From positions 96,001 through 160,000 of the forward strand of contig JAHJQN010000003.1 in the NCBI GenBank assembly GCA_018819225.1: a stretch of 64,000 nt of DNA, read 5' to 3'. The position numbers and the translations under genes were made by a program. This DNA is from Candidatus Micrarchaeota archaeon (GTDB lineage Archaea > Micrarchaeota > Micrarchaeia > Norongarragalinales > SBBD01). The notes beneath the pieces are model-generated. The model made no database searches and was not told where the DNA came from. It saw only the letters and a list, made by a program, of their open reading frames with translations. Positions 1 to 41,642 of this stretch are shown in pieces; positions within the stretch are counted from its first letter, which is position 1; every line of letters begins with the position of its first letter.

Positions 1-2171
1 GTGTTGATGAGTTCCTGCGTGTTGCCGTTCACGAAACCGTGAGCCGTCTGTTGATCGAAATCCGGATGCACATTACCGGGATCGAGCACCGTCTTGCTCT
101 CCCCGAAGAACACGATCCAATGCCCGTAATCCCACCAGGAAATCACGCGGTCATTATCCGAAAGATGGTCTTTCATCCAGTCCAACGATTCCATCCAATC
201 CGGAGAAATGCGCGAGTATTGCAAGCCGTTGGAAGCGGCATTCGCGATCGGAAGCTGCATGTTGAAGAGGATAAGACCCGTGAGCAACACGATGACGGTC
301 ATCGCGCCCCGCAAATACTTCGACTCCATGAGCTGATAGTTATCGTTCAAGGTCTCGAACGTGCGCTTGAGTTCTCCGAGAATGAACGGGATGGCAAATC
401 CGAGCGCCACCGCCAAATGGACCAAGAACTTCACGCGGTTCAATCCAATGTACGCGACCGGGAAGAAAATGAGAATCGTCAGCAACGCCAATCGATCCCG
501 CTTCTCGGAATAGGCGTACAATAGAATCATGGATCCCAAGCTCACGATGAGAAAGATGAATACGTCGCTCGAAGTCAGGAAACCAATCAACGTCGCCAAT
601 GCCGGAAGCGAGGAGCCCACCGCGTTAGCAAGAACCGTAAGGAGCGAGTCCAGAAACGAGTTGAAGAAAATTAAAAACAAGGCCACAATCAAGAACGTGG
701 CCGCATACTGCTTCTCCACGCGCCTCCATATGACGACGAAAGCGGATAACACCGCCATGAGCGTGGCCATCAACAAGACTTGCTCCGGATTGAATTCACC
801 GAATGCGGAACGGTAAAAGCCCGGATTCGTGGCCGCTCCTTCCTGAACCGTTTTATAGAGCGCATTGGAAACCGTGGCATAACCGAGCGAGGAATTCGCG
901 ATGCCGATGAACTTGGAGCCCAACGGACTGATAAAAAGAACGAGACTTCCGAGAATGAGAACAAGCGCCATGAGCTTGGGAGACGACAATTTCAAGCGTT
1001 CGCCCACGCGGAAATGCGCGAGAGCGTAAAGGAATAAAGCGAAAACCGCGGAAAGCACGACCAACTGGGTTCCGCTCGTGATAAACTCAATAGAGACCGG
1101 CGCTACGCGGTAAAACGCGAGAAGAATATTTCCGAACAACGCGCCTCCTCCGAACAACAAGTAGATTTCCGTATACGTTTTGTCCATTTCGTGCGACAGA
1201 AAATCGACCATAGCCTGCAATGCAATGTAAGCGGCCAAGACCGTGAACGGCCAGATGTGGTGAGCCGAACCCGTCACGGAAAGGAAAGCCACCAAGCCGG
1301 CAATCAAACCTAAGCGCACGCTCTTGCGGCCCAACGCCAGACCAAAGAAAATCAGAGCGGCAACGGAAATGAAGATTCCGAACGGCGCTTGCTCGGACAC
1401 GCCGGCCGCGAACTTGGAGACGAGTTGCGGCATCACCGTCAGAAGAGCCGCACCCGTTAAACCCACGTACGGGCCGTATTCCTCCTTTAAGTAAAGGAAC
1501 GCCAACCACACCAGGAAAACCGCTACGAGCGGCGGATAGAGCTGAATAATGAGAATCATATCCGTCTTGTCGAACAACGAACCTGAAAAATCTTGATGCA
1601 ACAAGAACCAGCCCCCCGTCAGATAATGGATGACGGGAAATTCGCGGTGGCTCTTCATTTCCGGGAAGTACGAGAGATCGGATTCCACGGGAATCTGACC
1701 CGTTTCCACGAGCATGCGCGTCAATTGATCGTAATAATACGGATCGAACTCGAAGAAGTTGGGTGCCCACGACGTGTTCACGCGGAGCCAAAATCCGTAC
1801 ACGGCAATCAAAAGAAGCACCGCGAACACGGCTTTCAAACGCCAGTCATGCTTGACGTTTGACCAGTGGTTAAACGCGTCCTTCAATTCGCCGGGAATCC
1901 GGCCGATCTGATGGTTTCGGAACATCAACGCGATGCCCGCAATGAACACCAACAGGATGTTGAAGAGCACGACCCCGGTATTGAACCGAAGCCCCAGGAA
2001 CTGGAACTCGAGAATGGCCAGGGTAGGCGGAAGCAGAATGCCGAGAACGACGCCGATCAACGTTTTTTCCAAACGGGAGAACGTAATACGGTGCAATAAC
2101 GCGAAGCCGAAAATAATGCCCGGAATAGCGAACAACAGAAAGATGAACAGCAATAGAAACGGCTCGATCAT
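1..2171 (-). CDS. aglB: Oligosaccharyltransferase AglB/STT3 (C-terminus runs off the window edge)
   Basis: Absent from the ORF track because there is no stop in the window. Manual translation from ATG 2171 gives a polytopic membrane protein with EFDPYYY, KTVQE and RVISWWDYGHWI..TVLDPGN motifs. Confidence 0.93.
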   Translation of the reverse strand, partial: MIEPFLLLFIFLLFAIPGIIFGFALLHRITFSRLEKTLIGVVLGILLPPTLAILEFQFLGLRFNTGVVLFNILLVFIAGIALMFRNHQIGRIPGELKDAFNHWSNVKHDWRLKAVFAVLLLIAVYGFWLRVNTSWAPNFFEFDPYYYDQLTRMLVETGQIPVESDLSYFPEMKSHREFPVIHYLTGGWFLLHQDFSGSLFDKTDMILIIQLYPPLVAVFLVWLAFLYLKEEYGPYVGLTGAALLTVMPQLVSKFAAGVSEQAPFGIFISVAALIFFGLALGRKSVRLGLIAGLVAFLSVTGSAHHIWPFTVLAAYIALQAMVDFLSHEMDKTYTEIYLLFGGGALFGNILLAFYRVAPVSIEFITSGTQLVVLSAVFALFLYALAHFRVGERLKLSSPKLMALVLILGSLVLFISPLGSKFIGIANSSLGYATVSNALYKTVQEGAATNPGFYRSAFGEFNPEQVLLMATLMAVLSAFVVIWRRVEKQYAATFLIVALFLIFFNSFLDSLLTVLANAVGSSLPALATLIGFLTSSDVFIFLIVSLGSMILLYAYSEKRDRLALLTILIFFPVAYIGLNRVKFLVHLAVALGFAIPFILGELKRTFETLNDNYQLMESKYLRGAMTVIVLLTGLILFNMQLPIANAASNGLQYSRISPDWMESLDWMKDHLSDNDRVISWWDYGHWIVFFGESKTVLDPGNVHPDFDQQTAHGFVNGNTQELIN

Positions 2172-2228: not shown

Positions 2229-3497
2229 TCAAGCGCCCGCTCGACGGAAAGCTTGCGGACGCAGGCTATACCAGATGCGAATCGAAACCGCGGTCAAAAG
2301 CGTAAACGAGGAAAGCACGACAGCCAACGCGGCGCCTTGAAGATGCAGGACGGGAACCAAAAGGTTCAAGAGAAGGGCATGCAAGCCAATGCCCGCGATC
2401 AGCAAGAGGAACGGAAACCGTTCCTGACGCTGCGACCACATGATGTTCAACAAAATCGTAAAAATGGCGAAAAAGAACGTGCCGATGGCCAGCAAGGTCA
2501 ACACCGGAGCGGCCCCGGCGTATTCATCGGGATAAAAGAAGGAGATCAAGGGCCCGGAAAACAACACGAAGGCCACGAGCACCGGCAGCAAGAAAGCGGA
2601 CGACTTCCAGATCAGTTGCTTCAAAGCGGCCGGATCCTTCGCATAAGAGAGCTTCGAAGATTTCGGGAATACGACGAGCACGATGCCCGCCGCCAAGTAG
2701 AACAATACTTTCGAAGTGACTTCCGCCACATTGTAAATGCCGGCAGACACGCTCCCCAAATAGTACTTGACGAAGAAGAGCGCCAAGTACATGAACGCGG
2801 AAATCATAAAGCTCGTCAACATCAAAATGAAAAAGGATTTCTTGAGGCTAATCGTGTACGGAGTCGTACCCTTAAGACGAAAGCGAAAGAACGCCGCCAG
2901 CACGAGCACCACCACCAAATACCCTGCCGGAAACGAAGCCGCGGCTCCCAAGAGCCCGAAACCCATGAACACGAGCAAGACCGCCGACGCGAGCTTGAAG
3001 AACTCGCGCGCCACGCCAATGGCCATGAGTACCACAATGTTTTCCTTGGACTGGAAGTAGCTGGAAGCCATGTTCATGAAATACGCGGCGGGAATCCCCA
3101 GCGAGATAATCGCAGCCGCCCATTGAAGTTCACGGCTGTTGTACACGAAAAGTGCGGCCAACGAAATAACGATAATCAAGAGCGCACTGAGCAACGTGAC
3201 GTTTTTCAAGTACTTAAACAAGACGAAGTGCATTTTCTTGAACTGGCGCTTGGCCTCCAATTTCGAGAGCTCGCGCGTCAACACCGCGGAAATACTGGCC
3301 GCGGGAACACTGGCCACCGCAAACAAACCGATGAGCACGCTCAAATCCCCGTATTGGCTTTGAAGCAGCATGCGCGTCATGACGAAATGGAACAAATACG
3401 CAAGAAACAAGTTGGCCAAGGTTCCCGACGTAGCGATGAGATTGCTTCGAAACAATGGACGATCGCGCAAGATGCTGCGCACGCTCTCCAAATACAT
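2229..3497 (-). CDS. Oligosaccharide flippase (Wzx/MOP family)
   Basis: 422 aa, ~12 hydrophobic segments, MOP-type patterns (TRML..SQYGDLS; LGSVSAGIYN); lies between a GT2 and aglB. Confidence 0.85.
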   Translation of the reverse strand: MYLESVRSILRDRPLFRSNLIATSGTLANLFLAYLFHFVMTRMLLQSQYGDLSVLIGLFAVASVPAASISAVLTRELSKLEAKRQFKKMHFVLFKYLKNVTLLSALLIIVISLAALFVYNSRELQWAAAIISLGIPAAYFMNMASSYFQSKENIVVLMAIGVAREFFKLASAVLLVFMGFGLLGAAASFPAGYLVVVLVLAAFFRFRLKGTTPYTISLKKSFFILMLTSFMISAFMYLALFFVKYYLGSVSAGIYNVAEVTSKVLFYLAAGIVLVVFPKSSKLSYAKDPAALKQLIWKSSAFLLPVLVAFVLFSGPLISFFYPDEYAGAAPVLTLLAIGTFFFAIFTILLNIMWSQRQERFPFLLLIAGIGLHALLLNLLVPVLHLQGAALAVVLSSFTLLTAVSIRIWYSLRPQAFRRAGA

Positions 3498-3510: not shown

Positions 3511-4425
3511 CTACCGTTTCTTGCGGAGAAGATTCTCGAGTCGCTGATTGTTCTTGAGGCTCATGTCCGCCAACATGCCGATCGCCCAGATTTGAATGGC
3601 GAGCAAGAACGAGAACGCCGCCAAGATCGTGGACGGAACGTGCTGAACGCTCCCAAAAACGATCTTCTCGTAAACCACGAGAGACGCGGGCCATAACCCG
3701 AACAAGAAGAACAGGAAACCCAGGATGCCGAAAAAGTATAAGGGCTTCGTATCGCGGATCATGAGAATCAAGGTCTTGAAGATGCGCAATCCGTCGTGAA
3801 TCGGATTCAGTTTCGTCTGGCCCTTCCGCTTCTTGTAAAACAAGGGAAACTCATGAATCCGCAAGTTATTTCGAAGCGCTTCAATCGTGATCTCGGTCTC
3901 GACTTCAAACGCCTGGGAGACGAGATTCAACTCGTCCAGCTTCTTTCGGGATAACGCACGATAGCCCGTCAACATGTCCGTAATGTTCTTTCCATAAAAG
4001 AAGCGGATCAACGCATTGAACGCGATGTTGCCCAGCGTGTTGAACGGCGTGATACTGGCGGAATCGCGTTGCGCCAGGCGCGTCGCCACCGTCATATCCG
4101 TTTTCCCGTCCATCAACGGCTCGACGAGTTTCGGAAGCTCTACCGATTGATAGGTGCCATCCCCGTCAATGAACACCACGTAATCGCATGAAATCTGTTC
4201 CAACGCCTCTTGAATCGCCGCCCCCTTCCCCCTTGTTTTTTGAATGAGAACCGTAGCACCCGCTTGCTTCGCTCGCGAAACCGTCCGATCCTTCGAGCGG
4301 CCGTCTATGACGACCGGCGTCACCTTTAGGTTGCGGACGCGCTTCGGAAGCGTCTTCACGACATCGAAAATAGCGTCTTCCTCGTTAAGGGTAGGAATGA
4401 GTACGCAAATATCGGTACGGATCAT
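3511..4425 (-). CDS. GT2 polyprenol-phosphate glycosyltransferase (DPM1/AglJ/ArnC-like) with 2 C-terminal TM helices
   Basis: VLIPTLNEE, IDGRSKD, GKGAA, FIDGDGTY, DMLTGYR and FEVETEI motifs. Start moved to ATG 4425. Confidence 0.9.
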   Translation of the reverse strand: MIRTDICVLIPTLNEEDAIFDVVKTLPKRVRNLKVTPVVIDGRSKDRTVSRAKQAGATVLIQKTRGKGAAIQEALEQISCDYVVFIDGDGTYQSVELPKLVEPLMDGKTDMTVATRLAQRDSASITPFNTLGNIAFNALIRFFYGKNITDMLTGYRALSRKKLDELNLVSQAFEVETEITIEALRNNLRIHEFPLFYKKRKGQTKLNPIHDGLRIFKTLILMIRDTKPLYFFGILGFLFFLFGLWPASLVVYEKIVFGSVQHVPSTILAAFSFLLAIQIWAIGMLADMSLKNNQRLENLLRKKR

Positions 4426-4521
4426 GCGGGTAACCCCCTCGTCAAACAATATCCCTCGAACCCTATTAAAAGCATTGTCCTTTGAAGTATTGTTAACGAC
4501 CGAAACAAAGGAGGGGAAACC

Positions 4522-5361
4522 GTGTTCGCCTTACGAATCGACATCGACAGCCGGTACGGGCTACGCAACGGCGTACCCCCTCTACTTGACATCCTTCGAA
4601 AACACGACATCCCAGCGGCATTCTGCGTCGTCATGGGAGGCGAATCCGGCGTGATCGACGTACTGAAACACCGCGGAGGAAAAGCCGGCCTCGGAGGCGG
4701 CGTCAGCATCCCGAAAAAAGAGATCGTGCGCATGCTCCTCCGGCCGAAAAACTTCGCGGAAGAAAACGTGGAACTCCTCCAACGCATTCCAAAAGAAGGG
4801 CATACGCTGGGCGTGCATGCCTGGAAACACCGCGCCTGGACACGATCGCTGGATACGATTCCCGTGAAAGAACACATGCGAATGGCTACCGAAAAGTACC
4901 GGGGGTTGTTCGGAAAAAAACCCGCGCATTTCGTATCCCCGGGATTCCGCGTGAATCGCCAAGTACTCGAAGGACTCGACGAACTGGGCTATGCATATGC
5001 CAGCGACCTGCCTGAAGAGATCCCGTTCCGTCCCGAAGCGCACGGACACGTGTTCCAACACGTGCAAGTACCCGTTACCCTGAAAGCCGACGATACCAGC
5101 CCCTTGTTCGAATACTACTCGAAGAAAGGATGGCGGAACGAAAAAGTCGTGCACCGGATCCTCATGCAAGTACTCGAACGCGACAAGAAAAACGAGCTCG
5201 CAACCGTTTATCTTCACGACGTATTCGAGGGAACGGTTAAGCCGCAGATCGTCGACCAATTCCTGCGCGGCATCAAAAAAGAAGGGGTTCGCGTCACGAC
5301 ATTTGAAAAACTCGCTCGCGAAGGAAAAAAGCATGTGCGGCGAGTGCTCAACGATAATTGA
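4522..5361 (+). CDS. ArnD-like deformylase/deacetylase (NodB/CE4 fold)
   Basis: LRIDIDS..G...GVP.LL..L, GVHAWKH..W and YASD motifs resemble ArnD. Confidence 0.8.
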   Translation: MFALRIDIDSRYGLRNGVPPLLDILRKHDIPAAFCVVMGGESGVIDVLKHRGGKAGLGGGVSIPKKEIVRMLLRPKNFAEENVELLQRIPKEGHTLGVHAWKHRAWTRSLDTIPVKEHMRMATEKYRGLFGKKPAHFVSPGFRVNRQVLEGLDELGYAYASDLPEEIPFRPEAHGHVFQHVQVPVTLKADDTSPLFEYYSKKGWRNEKVVHRILMQVLERDKKNELATVYLHDVFEGTVKPQIVDQFLRGIKKEGVRVTTFEKLAREGKKHVRRVLNDN

Positions 5362-5372
5362 AGTGAAGCACG

Positions 5373-6497
5373 ATGTTCATCACCGGGATAGGAAAAACAA
5401 AATTCGGGGTTTCGGAAAGCCCCCTCCATGAAATGGCTTACGAGGCGGCCGCGCAAGCTCTTCACGATGCGGACATGACGCCGAAAGACCTTCAAGCCGT
5501 ATACGTTTCCAATTTCGTAGGGGGCCCGGATGCGCGTCAATTGCACTTGAATGCCGTACTCGTCAGTCTCCTTCAATGCGAGGGAATCCCCGCGTTCCGA
5601 ACCGAAGCCGCATGTGCCGCGGGAGGCAGCGCGGTCTTTCAAGCGATTCGCAGCCCGTACGATAATATTCTCGTCGTAGGCGCGGAGAAAATGACGACCA
5701 CGAGCGCGAAACAAAACAGCATGCATATCGGTTTTGCCGGCGACCGCTTGCTCGATCAAAAAGAAGGCCTCATTTTCCCGGCGAGTTACGCGCTCATCGC
5801 CCAACAACATATGATGACGTACGGAACGACCTTGGACGATCTGGCCGCCGTTTCCCTCAAGAATCACGTAAACTCGCAAAGGAATCCGCTCGCTCATTTT
5901 GCGCACAAGAAAGTGACGCTGGAAGACATTCGGAAATCTCCGATCGTGTGTTCGCCACTGCGTTTGTTTGACTGCTCGCCCATTTCCGATGGAGCGGCTG
6001 CCGTCGTACTCACGAAAAAGAAAAAAGGGAACAGCATTTCCATCGCGGCCTCCGCCATGGCCACCGATTCCATTTCCCTCGTTCAGCGAAAGAACTTGAC
6101 CTCTTTTCAAGCCACGAAACGGGCCAGTGAAAACGCCTATAAAGAAGCGGGGGTTCAAGCGAAAGACTTGGATGTGATGGAAGTGCACGATTGCTTCACG
6201 ATCGCGGAACTCGTGGCCATGGAGGATCTCGGGGTATGCGCTCCCGGAGAAAGCGGGAAATGGGTGCGCGAAGGAAAAACCGCGTTGAACGGCGAGCTAC
6301 CCATCAACCCGGATGGCGGATTGAAAGCGGATGGGCATCCCATCGGCGCCACGGGCATTGCCCAACTCGTCGAGTTGGCCGCCCAGTTGCGGGGGGAAGC
6401 CGGAAAACGGCAAGTGAAAAACGCGGAAACGGGTTTGGCACAAAACGTGGGCGGCGTCGGCGGAACCGCGGCGGTCCACATACTGAAAAAGGGATGA
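5373..6497 (+). CDS. Archaeal-type thiolase (acetyl-CoA C-acetyltransferase)
   Basis: EAACAAGG (catalytic Cys), GAEKM, DCSPISDGAAA, EVHDCFT, GHPIGATG, QNVGG. Confidence 0.93.
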   Translation: MFITGIGKTKFGVSESPLHEMAYEAAAQALHDADMTPKDLQAVYVSNFVGGPDARQLHLNAVLVSLLQCEGIPAFRTEAACAAGGSAVFQAIRSPYDNILVVGAEKMTTTSAKQNSMHIGFAGDRLLDQKEGLIFPASYALIAQQHMMTYGTTLDDLAAVSLKNHVNSQRNPLAHFAHKKVTLEDIRKSPIVCSPLRLFDCSPISDGAAAVVLTKKKKGNSISIAASAMATDSISLVQRKNLTSFQATKRASENAYKEAGVQAKDLDVMEVHDCFTIAELVAMEDLGVCAPGESGKWVREGKTALNGELPINPDGGLKADGHPIGATGIAQLVELAAQLRGEAGKRQVKNAETGLAQNVGGVGGTAAVHILKKG

Positions 6498-7591
6498 CCA
6501 TGTGGACATGCATACCCTGCAAACGATTCTGGCACTACCCCCTCAAGAGGTGCGCGTACTGCGGAAAGGATCTCGCGGAAGAGTCCGCGAAAACACTCAC
6601 GGTCATCGGCGTTACGGAAGTGTTGGTGCCGTCCGTCGAGCACCCGGACGTCCCGTATTTTGTTTTGTTACTCGAGGACGAAAAGGGTTTCCGGCATTTG
6701 CGGAAGAGCATGGACCCGCAAAAAGTGGGGGACGTGCTCGACGTCAAGCCAGCGACCAACGCATTCGCCCGGATCGGCATTATCGGGACCGGGGCCATGG
6801 CGTCCGGCATCGCGATGTCTTGCTTGAAAGCCGGCATGCCCGTCATCGTGAAAAGCCGGAAGCAGGAAACGCTGAATCGATTCCAGGAGAACATTGCGCT
6901 GAAACTGAAAAAAAATCTTTCCGAGGAAGCGGTGAACGAAACCCTTACGCGGCTGGAACTCACCACCGATTACGCGAAACTGAAAAACTGCGACATCGTC
7001 ATCGAGAACGTGATCGAGAAATTGGATGCAAAGCAAGACGTGTTTGAGGCGTTGGAAAAACATTGCGGCCCCAACACCATTTTGGCCACGAATACCTCTT
7101 CGTTGCTCGTCTCCAGCTTGGCTCCGCTCGTGAAAAAACCGGAGCGCGTCATCGGACTGCACTTCTTCAATCCGGTCGAGAAGATGCGTCTCGCCGAAGT
7201 GATTGCCGGAGAGAATACCTCGATGGAAACCGTCCGGAAAACGCGGGAGATCGCGGAAGCCATGGGAAAAACCGCCGTGCAAGTGAAGGACGCGCCGGGA
7301 TTCATCGTCAACCGCGTGCTCTTCCCGTTCCTGAACGAGGCGGTGCTGCTCTTGGAGAACGAGACCGCGAATGCAGAAGACATTGATGCCGCCGTCAAAA
7401 TGGGCTTGAATCATCCCATGGGCCCGTTGGCGCTCATTGATCTCATCGGAGTCGACGTGTTCGTTGAAATCATGGACAACCTGAAAGAAGAGACGAAAGA
7501 ACAGAAGTTCGAGGTTGCTTCCCTCGCGAGAAAGATGGTTAAGGAAGGAAAGCTCGGCAGGAAAACCAGGCAAGGATTCTACGCGTATTGA
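6494..7591 (+). CDS. Fusion of DUF35 (Zn-ribbon + OB-fold) and 3-hydroxyacyl/3-hydroxybutyryl-CoA dehydrogenase
   Basis: ATG 6494 overlaps the thiolase stop (ATGA). N-terminus has CIPC..YP..RCAYC plus an OB-like segment; then GTGAMASGIA, NTSSL, GLHFFNP, PGFIVNR, HPMGP, GKLGRKT. Confidence 0.9.
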   Translation: MTMWTCIPCKRFWHYPLKRCAYCGKDLAEESAKTLTVIGVTEVLVPSVEHPDVPYFVLLLEDEKGFRHLRKSMDPQKVGDVLDVKPATNAFARIGIIGTGAMASGIAMSCLKAGMPVIVKSRKQETLNRFQENIALKLKKNLSEEAVNETLTRLELTTDYAKLKNCDIVIENVIEKLDAKQDVFEALEKHCGPNTILATNTSSLLVSSLAPLVKKPERVIGLHFFNPVEKMRLAEVIAGENTSMETVRKTREIAEAMGKTAVQVKDAPGFIVNRVLFPFLNEAVLLLENETANAEDIDAAVKMGLNHPMGPLALIDLIGVDVFVEIMDNLKEETKEQKFEVASLARKMVKEGKLGRKTRQGFYAY

Positions 7592-7608
7592 ATAAACCGG
7601 GGAGGCAT

Positions 7609-9087
7609 ATGGATTTCGATCTCCGTCAAGTCCAGGAATTCGGAAAAAAGGGATGGTACAACAAGCACTATTCCGGTCTGCCGATTACGCTTTCATCGAT
7701 CGCTAAAGGAATTGCCACTCCCCTTGAGGATGTCGGATGGAGCATGCGCTTTTCCGCGTGGTTTTTCCGCGAGAACATGTTCAACTTCTACTGGGGGCAG
7801 GAGGACATGGAGCGCGTCCGTCAATACGTGCTCGAACACAACGACGCGAATAGTAAATTCGCTGTCGAAATCATCCAACGGTGGGAGCGGCAGGCAAAAA
7901 AAGTCCATGAAAAAGTGCAAAAACTGGAAAGAAGGCCACTGGAAACGCTTTCCGATGAGCAATTCATTCACGAAACAAGTCAGTTGAATGAAATGCATGC
8001 TGTGGCGAGTTACCTGCCGCACATCGCGGACAGCTTCCTCGAAACGGGTGAAACCTCTTGGGCCCATGCAGCGCTCGAAAAGGACCTGACCGGCGTTCCG
8101 CCAACAGAAAGGGGAACGACGATCGAGGCGTTATGCCGGCCCACGGAGCTGACGTTCGTAAGACAAGAATATGCGGAACTCGTGGACGTGGCACGGAAAC
8201 GAGAAGACGGATCGCAAGAGGAATTCGAAGCGGCGTTGGAGGCGCATGCGCACAAATGGCAGTGGATCGAAAACAATTACCGGAAGGGATCGCATTTGAA
8301 CACCGCGTATTTCCAGGACAAATTGAATCGATTGACAACAAAGGAGTTGGCGGGCGGCACGGAAGTGGAACGAAAACGCCTCCATCGAGTGAAAGAGAAA
8401 AAAGCGGAGATCCTAGAACGGAACGGGAAAAGGGCGCAAAACCTCATTTTCCTGTTGGAGCGATTCGGGGTTTGGCAGGACGCGCGAAAGAAAATGAACC
8501 TGCATGCGACGCAGGCATGGTTCCGAATCCGCGATGAACTGGTGAGACGGACTGCGCTTTCTGAAGATGAAGCCAATTATTTATGCGGGGACGAAGTGGA
8601 AAAGGCGTTGAACGGGACCATCGAAAAAGAAACGCTTGCTGGCAGGAAAACGCATGGATTGGCATTGATGGGACTTTCCGAAAAATTGCTGAAATGGACG
8701 GGAAATGAGATGCGCCGAGCGGAATCGCTGTTTGAAACCGTGGAAACTGAAACCGATGAAATCAAGGGGGTTATAGCATCGAAAGGCTTTGCGAAAGGAC
8801 GGGCGGTACTATTACTCAATCTTCATGCGATGGCCCGCGTAAAACAAGGAGACGTCATCGTTTCGAATCAAACGACTCCCGAGTACGTCCCAGCGCTTAA
8901 GAAAGCAGCGGCTATTGTGACGGATCAAGGCGGGCTGACGTGCCACGCGGCTATCATCTCCAGGGAATTGGGAATTCCTGCGGTCATCGGCACCCGGATC
9001 GCATCACGCGTGTTCCATGAAGGAGATGTGTTAGAAGTGGATGCCGTGCACGGTGTGGTGAGGCGGATTCGGAACCCGACGAATTAG
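7609..9087 (+). CDS. Large N-terminal domain + C-terminal PEP-utilizer mobile (phospho-His swivel) domain protein, copy 1
   Basis: C-terminal TTPEYVP..AAAIVTDQGGLTCHAAIISRELGIPAVIGT. GGAGG just upstream of ATG 7609. No ATP-grasp or TIM-barrel domain recognised. Confidence 0.85.
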   Translation: MDFDLRQVQEFGKKGWYNKHYSGLPITLSSIAKGIATPLEDVGWSMRFSAWFFRENMFNFYWGQEDMERVRQYVLEHNDANSKFAVEIIQRWERQAKKVHEKVQKLERRPLETLSDEQFIHETSQLNEMHAVASYLPHIADSFLETGETSWAHAALEKDLTGVPPTERGTTIEALCRPTELTFVRQEYAELVDVARKREDGSQEEFEAALEAHAHKWQWIENNYRKGSHLNTAYFQDKLNRLTTKELAGGTEVERKRLHRVKEKKAEILERNGKRAQNLIFLLERFGVWQDARKKMNLHATQAWFRIRDELVRRTALSEDEANYLCGDEVEKALNGTIEKETLAGRKTHGLALMGLSEKLLKWTGNEMRRAESLFETVETETDEIKGVIASKGFAKGRAVLLLNLHAMARVKQGDVIVSNQTTPEYVPALKKAAAIVTDQGGLTCHAAIISRELGIPAVIGTRIASRVFHEGDVLEVDAVHGVVRRIRNPTN

Positions 9088-9137: not shown

Positions 9138-10373
9138 ATGCGCCACCTCCAACAGTATGCCGTTTTTACCGGAAAAGAGGAAATTCAAAAGATCCGGGAA
9201 CAAGGAGCGACCCTCAACGACGCGCACGTCGCGCATTTAAGCTCCACGTTTTACGGAGGGGGCGTCGCGCAACTCCTTTCGACGATGGTGCCGCTGCTCA
9301 ACGAAGCCGGCGTGCGCACCGGATGGCGTATCTTGCGCGGATACCCCGAGTTTTTCACCATAACAAAAAAAATTCATAACGGCCTATACGGAGACCACGA
9401 TATTCGCCTGACGCTATCTGAAAAGCGCACGTACCTTCGCGTCAACGAGCTCAACACCAAGTACATGCACTTGGGAGGACATGACCTGATCATCGTCCAC
9501 GATCCCCAACCGCTCCCGCTCATTCGGTTCAAGAAAGAACTCGCAGCGCCGGATTCCGTGAACAACCAGAAATGGCTTTGGCGTTACCATCTCGACTTCC
9601 GCAAGCACAACCCCCACGTATGGAAATACCTCAAACCGTTTGCCTCGAAATACGACGGCATCATCGTCACGCTCCCGGAATATCAGACGGACGTGCGCAA
9701 GCCCCATCACTTCGAAGCGCCGGCCATCGATCCATTGAACGATAAAAACCGCCCGCTCACGAAAAAACAGGCGCGCCGCATCCTCGAAGGACATGGCGTG
9801 CCCCTGGATAAGCCGTTGATCACGCAAGTCTCCCGCTTTGACCCCTGGAAAGACCCGTTGGGGGTCATCGACGCGTTTAAGCAAGTGAAAAAATACAAGG
9901 ATTGCCGATTGCTCATGCTCGGCGACATGGCGGCCGACGATCCGCAAGGAAAATTCGTTTATGATCAAGTCATCAAGAAAGCGGCGGGCGATCCGGATAT
10001 CCATGCCGTAAACATCGAAAACGATTTGCTGGTGAACGCCGCGCAGAAAATGTCGGACGTCGTCGTACAAAAATCCTTGGCTGAAGGATTCGGTTTGACC
10101 GTGGCCGAAGCGTTATGGAAAGAAACCCCGGTCGTGGCTTCGCGGGTCGGCGGCATCCCGATGCAGGTCGAGCACGGGAAAGGCGGATTGCTCGTGGACA
10201 GTATTGCCGAGTGCGCGGAAAGCATTCGGTATTTGCTGGAACACCCCAAGGAAGCCGAGCGCATGGGAAAAGAAGGAAGAGAACACATTCGAAAGAACTT
10301 CTTGATTACGCGACTCGTGCTCAATGAAATCTCCATCATTCAATCCACTTTAGGGAAAAAATCGGCGCCCTAA
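9138..10373 (+). CDS. treT: TreT-like GT4 trehalose synthase
   Basis: STFYGGGVAQLL, HDPQP, QVSRFDPWKDPLGVI, EGFGLTVAEALWK. Confidence 0.82.
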   Translation: MRHLQQYAVFTGKEEIQKIREQGATLNDAHVAHLSSTFYGGGVAQLLSTMVPLLNEAGVRTGWRILRGYPEFFTITKKIHNGLYGDHDIRLTLSEKRTYLRVNELNTKYMHLGGHDLIIVHDPQPLPLIRFKKELAAPDSVNNQKWLWRYHLDFRKHNPHVWKYLKPFASKYDGIIVTLPEYQTDVRKPHHFEAPAIDPLNDKNRPLTKKQARRILEGHGVPLDKPLITQVSRFDPWKDPLGVIDAFKQVKKYKDCRLLMLGDMAADDPQGKFVYDQVIKKAAGDPDIHAVNIENDLLVNAAQKMSDVVVQKSLAEGFGLTVAEALWKETPVVASRVGGIPMQVEHGKGGLLVDSIAECAESIRYLLEHPKEAERMGKEGREHIRKNFLITRLVLNEISIIQSTLGKKSAP

Positions 10374-10406
10374 ACGTTTTTTAGGGGAACCAATCATTAC
10401 GATTCC

Positions 10407-11897
10407 ATGGAATCGCTTCAGCATTTAGAAGGCGTCATCAAGAACCGGTTGAAAAATCGGCTGCTCGTCATCGCCTCCAATACGGCCCCGTACGTGCACT
10501 TTTTCCAGAAAGATAAGGTGCAGCACCGTATCGGTACCGGAGGAGTCGTGAGTGCCTTAAACGCAGTCCTGGAGGCTTCGGGAGGCACTTGGGTCGCGGC
10601 AAGTCAAGGCGATGCGGACTCCGAGGCCATGGATAAAGACGGATTTATTTCAGTACCACCTAAAAAACCCGCCTATCGATTCCGGCCCTTATTCCTATCG
10701 AAAGGGGACACCAACGGATACTTACACGGCGTATCGAATGCCGCCATCGTTCCATGGGCGCATAACGCGTACGTCCGACCGCGATTCGAGGAGGCGTGGT
10801 GGAAATCGTACGAGAAAGTCAACCGGCAGTTTGCGGATGCGATCATCAAGAGCATCGGGGACCAGGACGGATTCGTGTGGATTCAAGACTATCAATTATC
10901 GCTGTGCAGCCAATACGTGAAAGAAAAACGGCCGGATCTCGTGGTCGCCCAGTTCTGGCACGTGCCCTGGCCGAACGCCGACGTATTCAAGGTGAATCCG
11001 TGGGGGGAACACATATTGAAGGGACTCTTGCACAACGACCTCCTCGGATTTCATGTGCCCCAATACGGTTTCAATTTCGTGGACGCGGTTGATCAAACAT
11101 TGCCCGCCCGCATTGATCGCGAATCCAACACCATTCACTACCAAAAAGGCCAGACGGTCATCCGACACTTTCCGATTAGCATCCACTATCAAGGAATCCA
11201 CCAGGAAGCCAAGAGCATCCGCCCACCCGCGCTGAACCAGATTCGAAAAAATCTGGGGGGAACTTCTCAACGGTTCCTCGTCGGACTGGAGCGCTTCGAC
11301 TACACGAAAGGACTCATTGAAAAATTCCGGGGGTTTGACCGATTCCTGGAAAAAAATCCGGAATACCAAGGAAAAGTCACGCTCGTACAAGTCGCATCGC
11401 CCACGCGGGAAGCCGTAAAGGAATACAGGGATTACGCGGACGACGTGGTGCGCGTCATCGAAGAAATCAATTGGAAATATGAAATGGGTCGGTGGCAGCC
11501 CATCATTTTATTACACGAGTTTGTCAGCCGCCAAATGTTGCTCTCCCTCTATCGATTGGCGGATGCCTGCCTGGTGACCTCTCTGCACGAGGGCATGAAC
11601 CTCGTTGCAAAAGAATACGTGACCAGCAAAACGGATGGAGACGGCGTACTCATTCTCAGCAAGTTTACGGGCGCGGCCAGAGAACTCAAGTCCGCCCTTC
11701 TCATCAACCCCTTTTCCACGCACGAGATATCGGATGCGATCAAGCAAGCCATGGAAATGCCGAAAGCCGAACGCATGGAACGCATGCATCAAATGCAGAC
11801 GTATATCCGCGAACACGACGTCTTTCAATGGGCGGCGGATATGCTGGAAAGCATCAGTCGTTTGGAGAGCTCGTCGCCGATCTCCTCTCAAAAATAA
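10407..11897 (+). CDS. otsA: Trehalose-6-phosphate synthase (GT20)
   Basis: WIQDYQL, FWHVPWP, DLLGFH, ERFDYTKG, EGMNLVAKEY, LSKFTGAA. Confidence 0.9.
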   Translation: MESLQHLEGVIKNRLKNRLLVIASNTAPYVHFFQKDKVQHRIGTGGVVSALNAVLEASGGTWVAASQGDADSEAMDKDGFISVPPKKPAYRFRPLFLSKGDTNGYLHGVSNAAIVPWAHNAYVRPRFEEAWWKSYEKVNRQFADAIIKSIGDQDGFVWIQDYQLSLCSQYVKEKRPDLVVAQFWHVPWPNADVFKVNPWGEHILKGLLHNDLLGFHVPQYGFNFVDAVDQTLPARIDRESNTIHYQKGQTVIRHFPISIHYQGIHQEAKSIRPPALNQIRKNLGGTSQRFLVGLERFDYTKGLIEKFRGFDRFLEKNPEYQGKVTLVQVASPTREAVKEYRDYADDVVRVIEEINWKYEMGRWQPIILLHEFVSRQMLLSLYRLADACLVTSLHEGMNLVAKEYVTSKTDGDGVLILSKFTGAARELKSALLINPFSTHEISDAIKQAMEMPKAERMERMHQMQTYIREHDVFQWAADMLESISRLESSSPISSQK

Positions 11898-12650
11898 TTA
11901 TCGGGCTAACGAATGCAATAATCGATCCACGTCCCGAATTCCGTTTACATAGTATCGAGCGTTCGTGGTTCGGAAGTTCTTCTCGGAAGAGCGGACGAGT
12001 ACCCCGATGCCGTTGCGCTTAACCGCAAGAAAAGCGGGTTCGTCCGTCGAATCGTCTCCAACGTAGATGGGAAACGCGCGTTCGGAAGCGCCGATGCGAC
12101 GCACCGTAACGCCCTTGTCAGGAAGCCCTCTCGGAATCCATTCGAACGACTTCCGTCCAGGCACCTTTTGAAGAGAGGAAGTAAAGGAAAGAGAGTGAAT
12201 GGATTGAATTAAAGCGGCTTGACGCGATAACGCCACGTTGCGGTAGTGGAACACGAGACTGGAAGGCTTTCGTTCGATGAGAGAACCCGGAAAGGAACGC
12301 GCCAACGGCTTCAATACTCGTTCGAGTTGCGATATCATTCGGCGAATGCTTGCATTTTGACGGCTAAAAATCGGATTCCAATGCGCTCCACGCTCCGGGA
12401 TGACGCGAATCCCGCGAATGTGAAACCGTTTGTTCATGAATGAGGCGTCGCGACTCGTTAGAACCCAAACGGAAGCGCCGGAATCACGGAGTTTCATGAG
12501 GGCGCGTTTCATCGATGCGGCCAACCGGGGAGCCGCGGGATTTTTGCGGATGGGCACGAGTACGCCGTCGAAATCCAAGATCACGAGGCGACGACGGCGA
12601 CGCCATTTCTTCCTCAACAACGGAAGAGCAGAAAAAAAAGACGCGGGCAT
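11898..12650 (-). CDS. otsB: Trehalose-6-phosphate phosphatase (HAD IIB)
   Basis: LDFDGVLVPI, HYR, DKG, YVGDDSTDEPAF; convergent with otsA. Confidence 0.85.
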   Translation of the reverse strand: MPASFFSALPLLRKKWRRRRRLVILDFDGVLVPIRKNPAAPRLAASMKRALMKLRDSGASVWVLTSRDASFMNKRFHIRGIRVIPERGAHWNPIFSRQNASIRRMISQLERVLKPLARSFPGSLIERKPSSLVFHYRNVALSRQAALIQSIHSLSFTSSLQKVPGRKSFEWIPRGLPDKGVTVRRIGASERAFPIYVGDDSTDEPAFLAVKRNGIGVLVRSSEKNFRTTNARYYVNGIRDVDRLLHSLAR

Positions 12651-14319: not shown

Positions 14320-15438
14320 TCACCGGATTTTCAAGAGGCGGCGCCACGCTTTCAGTAGTTTTAAAGCCGCCTCGTTTCCGAATACCAAATAATACCACTG
14401 TATTTCGTTCCAGTTGGAAGAACAGGCGGCCATTTTCGCGTACTCCTTCTCATGGGAAACCATGTTTTCCTTGAACTCGGAATAGAGCACGCGGTAAAAG
14501 GGCCTCGTGTCCATCAGACAGGAATCCGCATTCCCGACTTTTCCGAAATGGAGGATACCTTTTCTTTGAAGTTGTTTCTGCCGGGCCTCCAGAAACGGGG
14601 AATGGCTTTTCAGGAATCCCAGCGCTTGAATTTCGCTCTTGCGGCCCGGGTAAGGAATGACGAGGAAATCCTGGCACAACACATAGTCCCGGTTCTGCGG
14701 AGAACTGTCCTTGACGATGACCAAACGCTCTCCCATCGTATGCAGCTTGAGCGGAACGCGCTTCAGGTTCCCGTTATCATCGGTCACGTTCACCGACATG
14801 CGGCCCTCTTTGTGAGTCAACGGAAATCCAACCTGCAGCTCAATGTAATGTACGAGGCTGTTATTGTTATTTCCGATGAGCAGGATCTTTCCGCCGCTCT
14901 TCACTAACCGGTCGTACGGCGTGTTTTCTCCAAAACCCGTATCCGACTCGTCATGTCCCCGCAGGAAATCCTTTGCCTGATTTCCCCAAGCTGCAAACGA
15001 ATGCGTGGGATGAAGGCTTCGAGTAACATCCGACCGCTTGCGAAACACTTCCGCCACTGCACCCACGTTCGTCTTCGTTTTACGCACGTCAAACGAAAAA
15101 TTCGAATCCGAATAGCTTTTTGGCGGGCGGTTGAACGTGGGAATCAAGATCGTCCCATTTTTTCCGACGGACTCGATGAGCGCCTCGATGAACGTGTTCG
15201 GCCCTCCTTCCACGAATCCGATGCAGCTCAACGCGGTTTGCACGAGCAGGGTATCCCCGCTCCGCACGCCCATACTCCGGAAATCATGCACGAGCTGCTT
15301 CTTGGACACGATCGCTGGTTGGGAAGACGCTCCCTTCGATTTCTTCCTGGAAATGAATTTCTTCTTGGCAATAAACAGCCCTTTCTTCATCCAGTTCGGC
15401 GTCACCAGTTTCACGGTGCGCGAAATCTTCTTCCTCAT
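14320..15438 (-). CDS. AAC(3)/YokD-family N-acyltransferase
   Basis: GDTLLVQ, GTILIPTF, RSLHPTHSFAAWG, FGENTPY, GGKILLIG, HYIE. Confidence 0.85.
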   Translation of the reverse strand: MRKKISRTVKLVTPNWMKKGLFIAKKKFISRKKSKGASSQPAIVSKKQLVHDFRSMGVRSGDTLLVQTALSCIGFVEGGPNTFIEALIESVGKNGTILIPTFNRPPKSYSDSNFSFDVRKTKTNVGAVAEVFRKRSDVTRSLHPTHSFAAWGNQAKDFLRGHDESDTGFGENTPYDRLVKSGGKILLIGNNNNSLVHYIELQVGFPLTHKEGRMSVNVTDDNGNLKRVPLKLHTMGERLVIVKDSSPQNRDYVLCQDFLVIPYPGRKSEIQALGFLKSHSPFLEARQKQLQRKGILHFGKVGNADSCLMDTRPFYRVLYSEFKENMVSHEKEYAKMAACSSNWNEIQWYYLVFGNEAALKLLKAWRRLLKIR

Positions 15439-16310
15439 CGGTTGACGACCTCCAATGGTACGTCCATATAATTCCCGGAAAAGTGTTTGGCCAGCTCTCC
15501 AGTCGAAACCACCTCCAAACCCTCCTCCTTTACTTTGACCAGAATCCGTTCTAAAACGTTTACCTGCATCGCGCCTTCGAGCAGCCCATGGCCGTACAAT
15601 ACGGCAGGTAGCCCCCGACGATGTTTCTCCATGATTCGTGAAAACACCTGATCCGCTATTTTAGAGTCCGGGATACCGCGCGCCCATGCGTCCTCGATCA
15701 GCGGAACCGTATCCGAGCACATCAAATTGACGGGCACTTGCATGTGTTTGAATCGTTTTCCGTTGATTACGGGATGGAACGGCTTATCTCCTGGAAGATC
15801 CCCGGCGGTCTCGAAACGGAACCGATCCAAACTCTCGAGAACCCTCACGCGGGTACGGAAAGCGGGAGACGCGAAATGCCGGGGCTTTTTTCCGAACAGG
15901 TTCTCAAAACGAGCGATCATGTCCGAAAACTCGAGGTCCACATCCATTTTCGGAAGTGACAACGCCCACTCCTCGTGCTCGATCGCATGGCAACCGAATT
16001 CATGCTCTTTTTCCGCAAGGCGCAGCAACTCCGTACTTTCTTCGGAAAAATTGACGGGAAGAAGCATCCTGCGCGCGAATTCTCCGTAGGAAATCTTGCG
16101 GCGGTGAGGCCTCTCGACGGGCGTGTACCAGGGATCGTAGTTTTTTCGGGAGAAGAACTTGCGGCGCAGCACGTGGGGAAGAAAAGGCTCACGACCCAGC
16201 ACCAGGAAGAAGCTGGCCGTTGAATCCGTTTTCCGGAGCGCCTCCAAAATGCGGGGCAACCCTTCCCGAACCCCGATGCGCGTATCCAAGTCAATCCGGA
16301 GGGAAAACAT
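15435..16310 (-). CDS. ArnD-like deformylase/deacetylase, second paralog
   Basis: LRIDLDT..G.REGLPR.L, HEFGCHAIEH..W; clearly related to 4522..5361; stop overlaps the AAC(3) start. Confidence 0.8.
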   Translation of the reverse strand: MFSLRIDLDTRIGVREGLPRILEALRKTDSTASFFLVLGREPFLPHVLRRKFFSRKNYDPWYTPVERPHRRKISYGEFARRMLLPVNFSEESTELLRLAEKEHEFGCHAIEHEEWALSLPKMDVDLEFSDMIARFENLFGKKPRHFASPAFRTRVRVLESLDRFRFETAGDLPGDKPFHPVINGKRFKHMQVPVNLMCSDTVPLIEDAWARGIPDSKIADQVFSRIMEKHRRGLPAVLYGHGLLEGAMQVNVLERILVKVKEEGLEVVSTGELAKHFSGNYMDVPLEVVNR

Positions 16311-38638: not shown

Positions 38639-40138
38639 ATGGCTAATTTGGAATGGGAGGTCATTGCCGAACGCGGACGGAGTCACGGCATCCACATCAT
38701 CGAAATCGTGATGGAGACCTACCTCGAAATCGCTTCCGGAAAACGCAAGTCCGAGTATACCGCGAAACAGTACCGCCAGGTCGATGCCGGAAAGCAAAAC
38801 GGTCGCGGCATGGGCTCGCGGGACGTACAACAGTACATCGATACGCTCAAGGAAATGGAGAAAAAGAATCCGAATGCGCTTTATGAACTGGCGCTAACCA
38901 GTGAACGCGATGTGGAGGAAGGGAAACGCGCTGCGGATGCCATCGCCAAAGAAGCGTATGCGCCCCCATCCGAATGGAGCGAACTGGCAGAAGGTATCGA
39001 ATTAATGGGGAACGCGTTTAAGGCGCTCACCCAACGATGCTATCATTACTTGATGATCAACAAGTTCTATCCGGATTCCGTTTCTCAAGCCATTGCGCAG
39101 CGCATAAGCGACCCTCACGAACAAGCAAGAATCGCAAACATTCTATTCACGTGCTCGAAACCCACCGGAATCCGCAAGGAAAAAAAAGAACTCCTGATGC
39201 TGGCTCAGGAAATGAAAAAGAACGCTTGGGACATCCATCGTCCGGAAGTGCACGAGCGATTGACAGCCATTGCAGAGCAATATGGCGCCCTCGGCATTTA
39301 CGTGATGTGGGGCGAGCCATTTACCGCGGAAACATTGAAACCCCGATTGAAGGAACTACTGGAAAGCGATCGCGAAAAAATGGAACAGGCATTGAATAAA
39401 CAGGAGCGAGTTTTGCAAGACACCGAAGACATCATGAAGAAACTGAAATTCACTCCCGAAGAAGCCATCCGCGTGAAAACGATTCAGGAATGGGCATTCG
39501 AAGCGAATAATCGCGACGAAGCATACGGGTATATCACCCGTCAGTGCATTCCCTTGCTGAATGAATGCGCCCGTCGATTCGGGATTTCACGGCACGATTT
39601 GCTGGAAATGCGAAAACACGAAATATTAAAACAACTTGAACGGAAGGAAAAAATGGGTGAGGCGTTCCAAAAGCAGATTGCCGCACGCGATGGAGCGCAC
39701 GCCATCGTACTGGAAAACGGACGCGTCCATCTGTATGAAGGGGCGGAATTCCAAGCCTACTTTGAAAAGGAAATGAAACTCGAGGAAAAAATGCATCACA
39801 TGCAAGAACTCCGAGGCCAAACGGCCTCACCAGGAAGCGTTTCCGGAAACGTGCGCTTGATTCACGGCATTGAGGACGTGCCCAAACTCGAGAAAGGAGA
39901 AATACTGGTGGCTACGGCGACCATGCCCGCGTATGTCCCCGCCATGGAAAAAGCAGCAGCCATCGTCACGAACGAAGGCGGACAGCTTTGCCATGCCGCA
40001 ATCGTTTCCCGCGAATTGGGCGTGCCATGCATTGTTGGAACCAAAATGGCCACGCACGTGTTTCAAGACGGGGAGCGCGTGGAAGTGGATGCGACCCATG
40101 GCGTCGTGCGCAAGCTATCCGTTCAGCGCAAATCGTAG
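38639..40138 (+). CDS. Large N-terminal domain + phospho-His swivel domain protein, copy 2
   Basis: TMPAYVPAM.KAAAIVTNEGGQLCHAAIVSRELGVPCIVGT. Confidence 0.85.
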   Translation: MANLEWEVIAERGRSHGIHIIEIVMETYLEIASGKRKSEYTAKQYRQVDAGKQNGRGMGSRDVQQYIDTLKEMEKKNPNALYELALTSERDVEEGKRAADAIAKEAYAPPSEWSELAEGIELMGNAFKALTQRCYHYLMINKFYPDSVSQAIAQRISDPHEQARIANILFTCSKPTGIRKEKKELLMLAQEMKKNAWDIHRPEVHERLTAIAEQYGALGIYVMWGEPFTAETLKPRLKELLESDREKMEQALNKQERVLQDTEDIMKKLKFTPEEAIRVKTIQEWAFEANNRDEAYGYITRQCIPLLNECARRFGISRHDLLEMRKHEILKQLERKEKMGEAFQKQIAARDGAHAIVLENGRVHLYEGAEFQAYFEKEMKLEEKMHHMQELRGQTASPGSVSGNVRLIHGIEDVPKLEKGEILVATATMPAYVPAMEKAAAIVTNEGGQLCHAAIVSRELGVPCIVGTKMATHVFQDGERVEVDATHGVVRKLSVQRKS

Positions 40139-41628: not shown

Positions 41629-41642
41629 AAGGCATCTCCAGA

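What the first reader, a model, noticed from the sequence alone, without database searches (positions are those of the whole stretch)
5373..7591. Thiolase coupled to a DUF35::3-hydroxyacyl-CoA dehydrogenase fusion instead of HMG-CoA synthase
Seen: the thiolase stop overlaps (ATGA) an ORF whose first ~85 aa are a Zn-ribbon/OB DUF35 domain, fused to a complete 3-hydroxyacyl-CoA dehydrogenase. No HMG-CoA synthase or enoyl-CoA hydratase is present in the window. Established: in archaea DUF35 scaffolds thiolase with HMG-CoA synthase, channelling acetoacetyl-CoA and pulling the endergonic condensation. Inference: the same scaffold is rewired so that NAD(P)H-dependent reduction pulls the reaction, giving a dedicated 3-hydroxybutyryl-CoA synthase complex.
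Basis: partly seen in the sequence, partly recalled or inferred. Interest (0 to 1): 0.7.

Follow-up and report, generated by a model that had tools for sequence, protein, structure and literature searches.

The report
Tethered hydroxybutyryl-CoA supply for glycan decoration
A small symbiotic archaeon keeps, beside its protein-glycosylation genes, a second thiolase and a reductase with a built-in docking domain that most likely make 3-hydroxybutyryl-CoA to decorate a surface sugar; this is an undescribed variant of known thiolase scaffolding and has not been tested by experiment.

Summary
Observation confirmed. A thiolase with intact catalytic motifs (5373-6497) is followed by a protein joining a shortened (~82 aa) DUF35 domain to a complete 3-hydroxyacyl-CoA dehydrogenase (HBD). 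Pfam misses the domain, but a profile and a fold model place it in DUF35. A 2:2 model with the thiolase scores 0.92 against a best control of 0.02; similar complexes are solved, so this may be memory. The pair does not replace HMG-CoA synthase: the genome has the canonical HMGS-thiolase-DUF35 cluster on another contig. The pair sits beside aglB, a flippase, an aglJ-like gene and an ArnD-like deacylase. In 68 genomes of the order, HBD and that deacylase occur in the same 8, and each of the 8 has a candidate acyltransferase (hexapeptide in six, AAC(3)-like in two). Distant archaea and bacteria carry the cassette in glycan clusters, some with FabG replacing HBD. Best reading: a dedicated, probably NADPH-driven, 3-hydroxybutyryl-CoA source for glycan N-acylation. 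Channelling and the sugar acceptor are inferred. The scan already noted this cassette in five other genomes; I found no paper describing it. New variant of a known kind.

The parts
5373..6497 (+). Archaeal/SCP2-type thiolase; Cys81, HDCF (272-275) and GHP (321-323) intact; belongs to a clade separate from the genome's mevalonate thiolase
6494..7591 (+). Fusion ORF mini-DUF35::3-hydroxyacyl-CoA dehydrogenase (start at 6494 or 6500; 365 or 363 aa)
6500..6745 (+). Shortened DUF35 domain (4-Cys zinc ribbon C4/C7/C18/C21 plus OB-like barrel), predicted thiolase-docking domain
6746..6769 (+). Short low-confidence linker of about 8 residues (pLDDT under 50 at residues 84-86)
6770..7588 (+). Complete HBD domain; catalytic Ser200/His221/Glu233/Asn271 present; Ser119-Arg120 replace the NAD-selecting Asp-Ile (NADP(H)-type signature)
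4522..5361 (+). ArnD-like carbohydrate deacylase, 11 nt upstream of the thiolase; co-occurs with HBD in the same 8 of 68 genomes of the order
3511..4449 (-). AglJ-like family 2 glycosyltransferase (TIGR04182 E=5e-86, below cut-off), divergent from the module
2229..3497 (-). Flippase; 60% identical to a Polysacc_synt protein in a relative's locus
3..2171 (-). AglB/STT3-like oligosaccharyltransferase (runs off the window); 35% identical to a relative's protein that hits TIGR04154
14320..15438 (-). AAC(3)-family N-acyltransferase; candidate user of the acyl-CoA in this genome (inferred)
15435..16310 (-). Second ArnD-like deacylase overlapping the AAC(3)-like gene; same pair in relative G001

Best explanation
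The two genes form a dedicated acyl-donor unit for surface-glycan (probably N-glycan) tailoring. The thiolase condenses two acetyl-CoA. The shortened DUF35 domain docks on the thiolase dimer and holds the fused dehydrogenase next to it. The dehydrogenase reduces acetoacetyl-CoA, probably with NADPH, to (S)-3-hydroxybutyryl-CoA, which pulls the unfavourable condensation without draining the mevalonate complex. An acyltransferase (here most likely the AAC(3)-family protein at 14320-15438; a hexapeptide enzyme in relatives) puts the 3-hydroxybutyryl group on a sugar amine, most likely one freed by the neighbouring ArnD-like deacylase. Shown: gene anatomy, intact motifs, DUF35 homology, gene context and co-occurrence. 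Modelled: docking on the thiolase. Inferred: direction, cofactor, chain length, stereochemistry, the acceptor and which acyltransferase acts. Direct channelling is the weakest step (about even odds).
For: Catalytic motifs intact in both enzymes. The mini-domain profile recovers canonical DUF35 proteins at E 1e-9 to 1e-3; its best PDB sequence hit is the DUF35 of the thiolase/HMGS complex (6esq_E, E=0.0013); the top 7 of 48,161 chains by fold are all DUF35 proteins (Z 5.9-6.8). Complex model: ipSAE 0.92, best control 0.02, runs agree in at least 99% of contacts, partner pLDDT at least 87; the mark was reached by 58 of 80 solved and 2 of 110 mismatched pairs, and like complexes are solved. Thiolase and mini-domain are absent together from the loci of G056 and G031, while G051, in the same genus as G056, keeps both. 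No crotonase, acyl-CoA dehydrogenase, MaoC or PhaC found; a separate mevalonate cluster exists. HBD and the ArnD-like deacylase mark the same 8 of 68 genomes; a hexapeptide acyltransferase clade is in six of them and an AAC(3)-family gene only in the other two. 14 of 19 module loci have an acyltransferase within 4.5 kb, against 3 of 161 ordinary HBD loci. FabG-type SDR replaces HBD on the same domain in the same kind of context. In an Aenigmarchaeota locus the pair lies between WbpB-like and WbpD/WbpE-like genes. 0 of 31 fused HBDs keep the NAD-selecting Asp/Glu and 29 have Arg next to it, against 127 of 138 other HBDs with Asp/Glu. Bacterial analogue: the viosamine island (PMC3927599).
Against: No biochemistry and no glycan structure exist for this lineage. 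In this window the nearest acyltransferase is about 7 kb away, on the other strand, and of a different family from that of most relatives. Kin genomes are not independent, and the context references came from module loci (own locus left out), which favours the module. The non-Asp cofactor loop is also common in beta-oxidation-cluster HBDs of the same class (only 3 of 22 have Asp), so it does not prove a biosynthetic role. G056 and G031 keep HBD with no tether, so the tether is dispensable. In some relatives the deacylase sits near a formyltransferase and could be a plain deformylase. The genome is 90% complete, so absences are not proven.
Confidence: 0.7

Rival explanations
1. Same product and purpose, but no channelling: the DUF35 domain is simply the obligatory stabilising subunit of this thiolase type, and the fusion only co-localises and co-expresses the reductase. 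This rival concerns the channelling step only and is compatible with the glycan role.
For: Thiolases of this type are insoluble or inactive without DUF35 (PMC12960953; bioRxiv 2024.07.05.601840). Flexible DUF35 tethers are argued not to channel (PMC12329534). The linker is low-confidence. The same domain is fused to unrelated partners (HBD, SDR, DUF362). Stand-alone HBD suffices in two relatives.
Against: Two unrelated ketoacyl reductase folds were each fused to the same domain, and the linker is only about 8 residues, which suggests selection for proximity.
Confidence: 0.45
2. Catabolic salvage: the deacylase frees 3-hydroxybutyrate from own or scavenged glycans, and HBD plus thiolase break its CoA ester down to acetyl-CoA.
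For: Both enzymes are reversible and thiolysis is the favoured direction. The deacylase is the most constant neighbour in the order. An ADP-forming acyl-CoA synthetase is present.
Against: No CoA ligase or CoA transferase was seen in the glycan loci. Acyltransferases and nucleotide-sugar synthesis genes are the neighbours. Several loci lack a deacylase nearby (L221, L223, L224).
Confidence: 0.07
3. Fermentative electron sink: acetyl-CoA is reduced to 3-hydroxybutyryl-CoA and released as 3-hydroxybutyrate through the ADP-forming synthetase, unrelated to the glycan genes.
For: A small fermentative genome with an ADP-forming acyl-CoA synthetase and no downstream crotonase.
Against: Patchy distribution (8 of 68 genomes), always beside a glycan deacylase, and recurring in glycan clusters of unrelated phyla. 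The cofactor loop looks NADP(H)-type.
Confidence: 0.06
4. The donor is for glycans but is not (S)-3-hydroxybutyryl-CoA: a longer or branched 3-hydroxyacyl group is made, or acetoacetyl is transferred first and reduced on the sugar.
For: SCP2-type thiolases take varied acyl groups. An N-acetoacetyl-sugar intermediate is proposed in the viosamine pathway (PMC3927599).
Against: No dehydratase or enoyl reductase for elongation was found. The closest solved relatives are C4 3-hydroxybutyryl-CoA dehydrogenases, and the family acts on CoA esters.
Confidence: 0.13

Closest known systems
[quoted passage not shown]
   Same: Same thiolase family with Cys, HDxF and GHP motifs; DUF35 partner encoded immediately downstream; a following enzyme pulls the condensation.
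   Different: No HMGS in the unit. The DUF35 is about 82 aa instead of about 130 and is fused to a reductase. The genome keeps the canonical complex separately. The thiolase belongs to a distinct clade.
Sulfolobus acidocaldarius KT/DUF35/ACR/MaoC fatty acid synthase complex (bioRxiv 10.1101/2024.07.05.601840)
   Same: A thiolase/DUF35 pair physically coupled to a ketoacyl-CoA reductase so that NADPH reduction drives the condensation.
   Different: There the reductase is a separate (R)-specific SDR and the path continues to fatty acids. Here it is a fused (S)-type HBD, with no dehydratase or enoyl reductase, in a glycan locus.
ChsH2-Ltp2 and Shy-Sal hydratase/aldolase complexes (PDB 6OK1, 9MYR; PMC12329534)
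   Same: A DUF35 domain covalently fused to the adjacent pathway enzyme tethers it to a thiolase-fold dimer.
   Different: Those are catabolic steroid aldolases without thiolase chemistry, and the fused enzyme is a MaoC hydratase.
Pseudomonas syringae viosamine island VioS/VioR/ACP/VioB (PMC3927599); FdhC and QdhC 3-hydroxybutanoyl transferases (PMC4869667)
   Same: A glycan cluster with its own condensing enzyme, ketoreductase and acyltransferase giving an N-(3-hydroxybutyryl) sugar.
   Different: The bacterial island is ACP/KASIII/FabG based. This module is CoA based, uses an archaeal thiolase with a tethered reductase, and lies beside aglB.

Membership tests
DUF35 (ChsH2 zinc ribbon + OB fold) | Pfam PF12172/PF01796 match | tested here: not met
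   No hit for this protein or for three other HBD fusions
DUF35 (ChsH2 zinc ribbon + OB fold) | Four-Cys rubredoxin-like ribbon followed by an OB-type barrel, homologous to known DUF35 | tested here: met
   C4/C7/C18/C21 invariant in 86 aligned members chosen for the motif; profile hits canonical DUF35s (probability 90.6%); top fold matches all DUF35
DUF35 (ChsH2 zinc ribbon + OB fold) | Binds an SCP2-type thiolase dimer | tested here: inconclusive
   Model supports binding (0.92 vs best control 0.02), but like complexes are solved and no experiment exists
Archaeal thiolase/HMGS/DUF35 complex | Thiolase with catalytic Cys, HDxF and GHP | tested here: met
Archaeal thiolase/HMGS/DUF35 complex | HMG-CoA synthase encoded with the thiolase and DUF35 | tested here: not met
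   The only HMGS is on contig C6 with its own thiolase and DUF35
Archaeal thiolase/HMGS/DUF35 complex | Shared CoA site and substrate channelling | not testable with these tools
   Needs kinetics or a structure of the full complex
3-hydroxyacyl-CoA dehydrogenase (Hbd) | 3HCDH_N + 3HCDH domains with catalytic Ser/His/Glu/Asn | tested here: met
3-hydroxyacyl-CoA dehydrogenase (Hbd) | Acidic residue after strand beta-2 that selects NAD(H) | tested here: not met
   Ser-Arg in place of Asp-Ile of Clostridium Hbd; 0 of 31 fusions acidic
Sulfolobus-type archaeal fatty acid synthase | MaoC dehydratase partner | tested here: not met
   No MaoC found in a 90% complete genome; the enoyl reductase was not searched
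Beta-oxidation cluster | Acyl-CoA dehydrogenase and crotonase present | tested here: not met
   Neither found (genome 90% complete)
Glycan 3-hydroxybutyryl donor module (viosamine-island-like) | Condensing enzyme, ketoreductase and acyltransferase inside a glycan cluster | tested here: met
   in this genome the acyltransferase is about 7 kb away
Glycan 3-hydroxybutyryl donor module (viosamine-island-like) | 3-hydroxybutyryl group present on the glycan | not testable with these tools
   Needs glycan mass spectrometry

The most novel reading that the evidence does not exclude
An 'N-acyl swap' kit for archaeal N-glycans: the ArnD-like enzyme strips the N-acetyl group from a lipid-linked or nucleotide sugar, and the acyltransferase re-acylates it with 3-hydroxybutyryl made by a channelling thiolase-reductase complex. 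Swapping the fused reductase (HBD or FabG) on one docking domain would switch the group between (S) and (R), giving surface variation in DPANN symbionts. I found no report of a 3-hydroxybutyrylated archaeal N-glycan.
Probability: 0.3. Interest if true: 0.72.

Novelty: new variant of a known kind. Interest (0 to 1): 0.55.

Why it matters
It extends DUF35 scaffolding from isoprenoid, fatty-acid and steroid pathways to glycan tailoring. It defines a shortened DUF35 subfamily that Pfam misses and that serves as a swappable thiolase-docking tag (fused to HBD, FabG or DUF362). It predicts a specific, testable surface modification in uncultured archaea. A two-gene acetyl-CoA to 3-hydroxybutyryl-CoA unit with a tethered reductase is also a simple test case for whether such tethers channel, which matters for 3-hydroxybutyrate and butanol pathway design.

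Tried and rejected
Pfam and NCBIfam gave no DUF35 hit for the N-terminus; a single-sequence PDB search gave only E=0.29. Single-sequence locus searches were swamped by ordinary HBDs, and the mini-domain alignment was too variable for a pattern scan. Foldseek gave no match at E of 0.001 or better, although its top ranks were DUF35 proteins. The HBD tree did not resolve whether fused HBDs have one origin (quick tree, weak backbone); it only supports G056 as sister to G051. The promoter/terminator scan was at chance level. A frameshift or assembly artefact was rejected: the fusion is one open frame here and recurs in more than 30 distinct proteins. Replacement of the mevalonate complex was rejected. 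PHA synthesis, beta-oxidation and fatty-acid elongation were rejected for lack of partner genes. No full-length DegT aminotransferase and no copy of the relatives' hexapeptide acyltransferase was found in this genome. Paper searches found no description of this fusion; the library lacks most subscription journals.

Full report
Observation. The window encodes a 374-aa thiolase at 5373-6497 (+). Its stop codon overlaps an ATG at 6494. The next frame runs to 7591 and has a second ATG at 6500, which is the start used in the database record and in two close homologues, so the 4-nt overlap depends on the start chosen. The thiolase is of the archaeal/SCP2 type (PRK06064 above cut-off; 6ESQ thiolase E=2e-73), with Cys81, HDCF and GHP intact. 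The second protein has complete 3HCDH_N and 3HCDH domains from about residue 91 of the 363-aa form. Its first ~82 residues carry four cysteines but match no DUF35 Pfam model.

Is the N-terminus DUF35? A profile of six homologues found 134 proteins among the 50%-identity representatives, a few of them spurious repeats. A profile of about 95 such domains recovers ordinary DUF35 proteins lying behind mevalonate thiolases at E 1e-9 to 1e-3. It aligns to this genome's own DUF35 with 90.6% probability, and its best PDB hit is the DUF35 chain of 6ESQ (E=0.0013). The fold model (pLDDT 92) ranks seven DUF35 proteins first among 48,161 chains (Z 5.9-6.8, modest values), and Foldseek agrees. So it is a shortened, divergent DUF35. 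A 2:2 model with the thiolase scores 0.92 against a best control of 0.02. The runs agree in at least 99% of contacts and the partner pLDDT is at least 87. The mark was reached by 58 of 80 solved and 2 of 110 mismatched pairs. Similar complexes are solved, so this shows likeness, not proven binding. The interface is mostly the OB strands (residues 37-69), which fits the loss of the zinc ribbon in four relatives (G025, G041, G051, G328). The full-length model shows two well-folded parts joined by a short low-confidence linker.

Genome context. The host is most likely a Candidatus Micrarchaeota archaeon: a genome of the same order matches a named Micrarchaeota locus by coordinates (G327 and L227), and the genome's mevalonate thiolase groups with Micrarchaeota and Iainarchaeota. 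The 1.37-Mb genome (90% complete) has a canonical HMGR, HMGS, thiolase, DUF35 cluster on contig C6. The pair in the window is therefore an extra system, and 'instead of HMG-CoA synthase' is true only of the locus. No crotonase, acyl-CoA dehydrogenase, MaoC or PhaC was found, so 3-hydroxybutyryl-CoA would have no standard onward route. The neighbours are an ArnD-like deacylase 11 nt upstream, then divergently an AglJ-like glycosyltransferase, a flippase and an AglB-like protein. Seven kilobases downstream lie an AAC(3)-family N-acyltransferase, a second ArnD-like gene, a GT4 and WecB.

Comparative evidence. Among 68 genomes of the order, HBD is found in 8 and the ArnD-like deacylase in the same 8, in the same locus each time. 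Six of these carry one tight clade of hexapeptide acyltransferase (75% identity or more). The other two, this genome and G001, are the only ones in the order with an AAC(3)-family gene. In G056 and G031 the locus lacks the extra thiolase and the mini-domain together, while HBD stays; G051, of the same genus as G056, keeps both, and their HBDs are sisters. Outside the order the cassette occurs in Methanobacteriota, Aenigmarchaeota, Nitrospirota and Actinomycetota records, beside hexapeptide or HGSNAT-like acyltransferases and nucleotide-sugar genes. In the Aenigmarchaeota locus it lies between a WbpB-like oxidoreductase and WbpD/WbpE-like genes, where the amine is newly made and no deacylase was seen nearby. 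In L219 and G328 the same domain is fused to a FabG-type SDR instead, again beside a hexapeptide enzyme. Of 19 module loci, 14 have an acyltransferase within 4.5 kb, against 3 of 161 ordinary HBD loci; only one control has both glycan and acyl genes, and its HBD also lacks the acidic residue. The references for this count came from module loci and kin are not independent, so it is a strong hint and not a statistic. The module thiolases form one supported clade (SH-aLRT 100, quick tree, midpoint root), apart from mevalonate thiolases.

Direction and cofactor. The residue pair after strand beta-2 is Ser-Arg where the NADH-using Clostridium Hbd has Asp-Ile. None of 31 fused HBDs has an acidic residue there and 29 have Arg next to it, whereas 127 of 138 other HBDs have Asp or Glu. 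By established Rossmann-fold rules (my own knowledge) this suggests NADP(H) and a reductive role. It is not diagnostic, because beta-oxidation-cluster HBDs of the same class mostly lack the Asp too.

Mechanism. Two acetyl-CoA are condensed by the thiolase. The tethered HBD reduces acetoacetyl-CoA to (S)-3-hydroxybutyryl-CoA and so pulls the reaction. An acyltransferase transfers the group to a sugar amine on a glycan bound for AglB. This genome shows no full-length DegT aminotransferase and only a weak formyltransferase-like hit, so the free amine most plausibly comes from deacetylation by an ArnD-like enzyme. Anatomy, motifs, homology and context are shown; docking is modelled; direction, product, acceptor and channelling are inferred.

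Comparison with known systems. DUF35 scaffolding of thiolase and HMGS is established (6ESQ; PMC12960953). Coupling of a thiolase/DUF35 pair to an NADPH ketoacyl reductase is shown in Sulfolobus (bioRxiv 10.1101/2024.07.05.601840). Covalent DUF35 tethers are known from ChsH2 and Shy, where channelling was doubted (PMC12329534). Dedicated 3-hydroxybutyryl supply inside a glycan island is known from P. syringae (PMC3927599), and 3-hydroxybutanoyl transferases from enterobacterial O-antigens (PMC4869667). An HBD gene is also listed in a V. cholerae capsule cluster (PMC1847822). The module works like these but is a member of none. I found no paper on the fusion.

Earlier notes and verdict. The scan reported this cassette, with the same reading, in five other genomes. 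I saw those notes after reaching my reading, and they are not independent evidence. A first-reader note on this window proposed the acyl swap, which I tested by co-occurrence. Verdict: real, a new variant of a known kind, interest 0.55.

Noticed in passing
L216:1574-15818 and L322:2853-10834: A sister branch fuses the same mini-DUF35 to DUF362 (Atlas cluster of 142 members, commonest taxon Minisyncoccota). In two loci it lies with acetyl-CoA carboxylase subunits, a FabA/FabZ-like dehydratase, a thiolase and FabG, which looks like a CoA-based fatty-acid or polyketide synthesis cluster. These thiolases keep the Cys but have HDAF. Possibly more novel than the finding itself.
   Followed up: partly
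L319:5197-7225 (G328) and L219:7875-10701: Mini-DUF35 fused to a FabG-type SDR behind the same thiolase clade, beside a hexapeptide acyltransferase; predicts the (R) isomer.
   Followed up: partly
window 7588-9087 (+): 499-aa ORF overlapping the fusion's stop, with only a C-terminal PEP-utiliser mobile domain; the genome has many paralogues, several in tandem on contig C7. Not seen in this position in relatives.
   Followed up: no
window 9138-12650: TreT-like glycosyltransferase, trehalose-6-phosphate synthase (GT20) and a convergent HAD-type, trehalose-phosphate-phosphatase-like gene interrupt the glycan region.
   Followed up: no
window 14320-16310 (-); L308: AAC(3)-family acyltransferase overlapping a second ArnD-like gene; found only here and in G001 among 68 genomes. 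Probably glycan tailoring rather than antibiotic resistance.
   Followed up: partly
L121:14632-19999; L123:12978-18716: Relatives with the module also carry a PseB-like dehydratase, a formyltransferase and FolD nearby (L121 also a DegT-like gene), suggesting an N-formyl sugar in the same glycan.
   Followed up: no
L092-L115: HBDs in beta-oxidation-type clusters of same-class genomes mostly lack the NAD-selecting Asp (3 of 22 keep it), so they may be NADP(H)-linked or work in the reductive direction.
   Followed up: no
window 40123-43145 (-), 50785-52356 (+): Three similar ~500-aa membrane proteins with near-identical N-terminal motifs, possibly GT-C paralogues.
   Followed up: no
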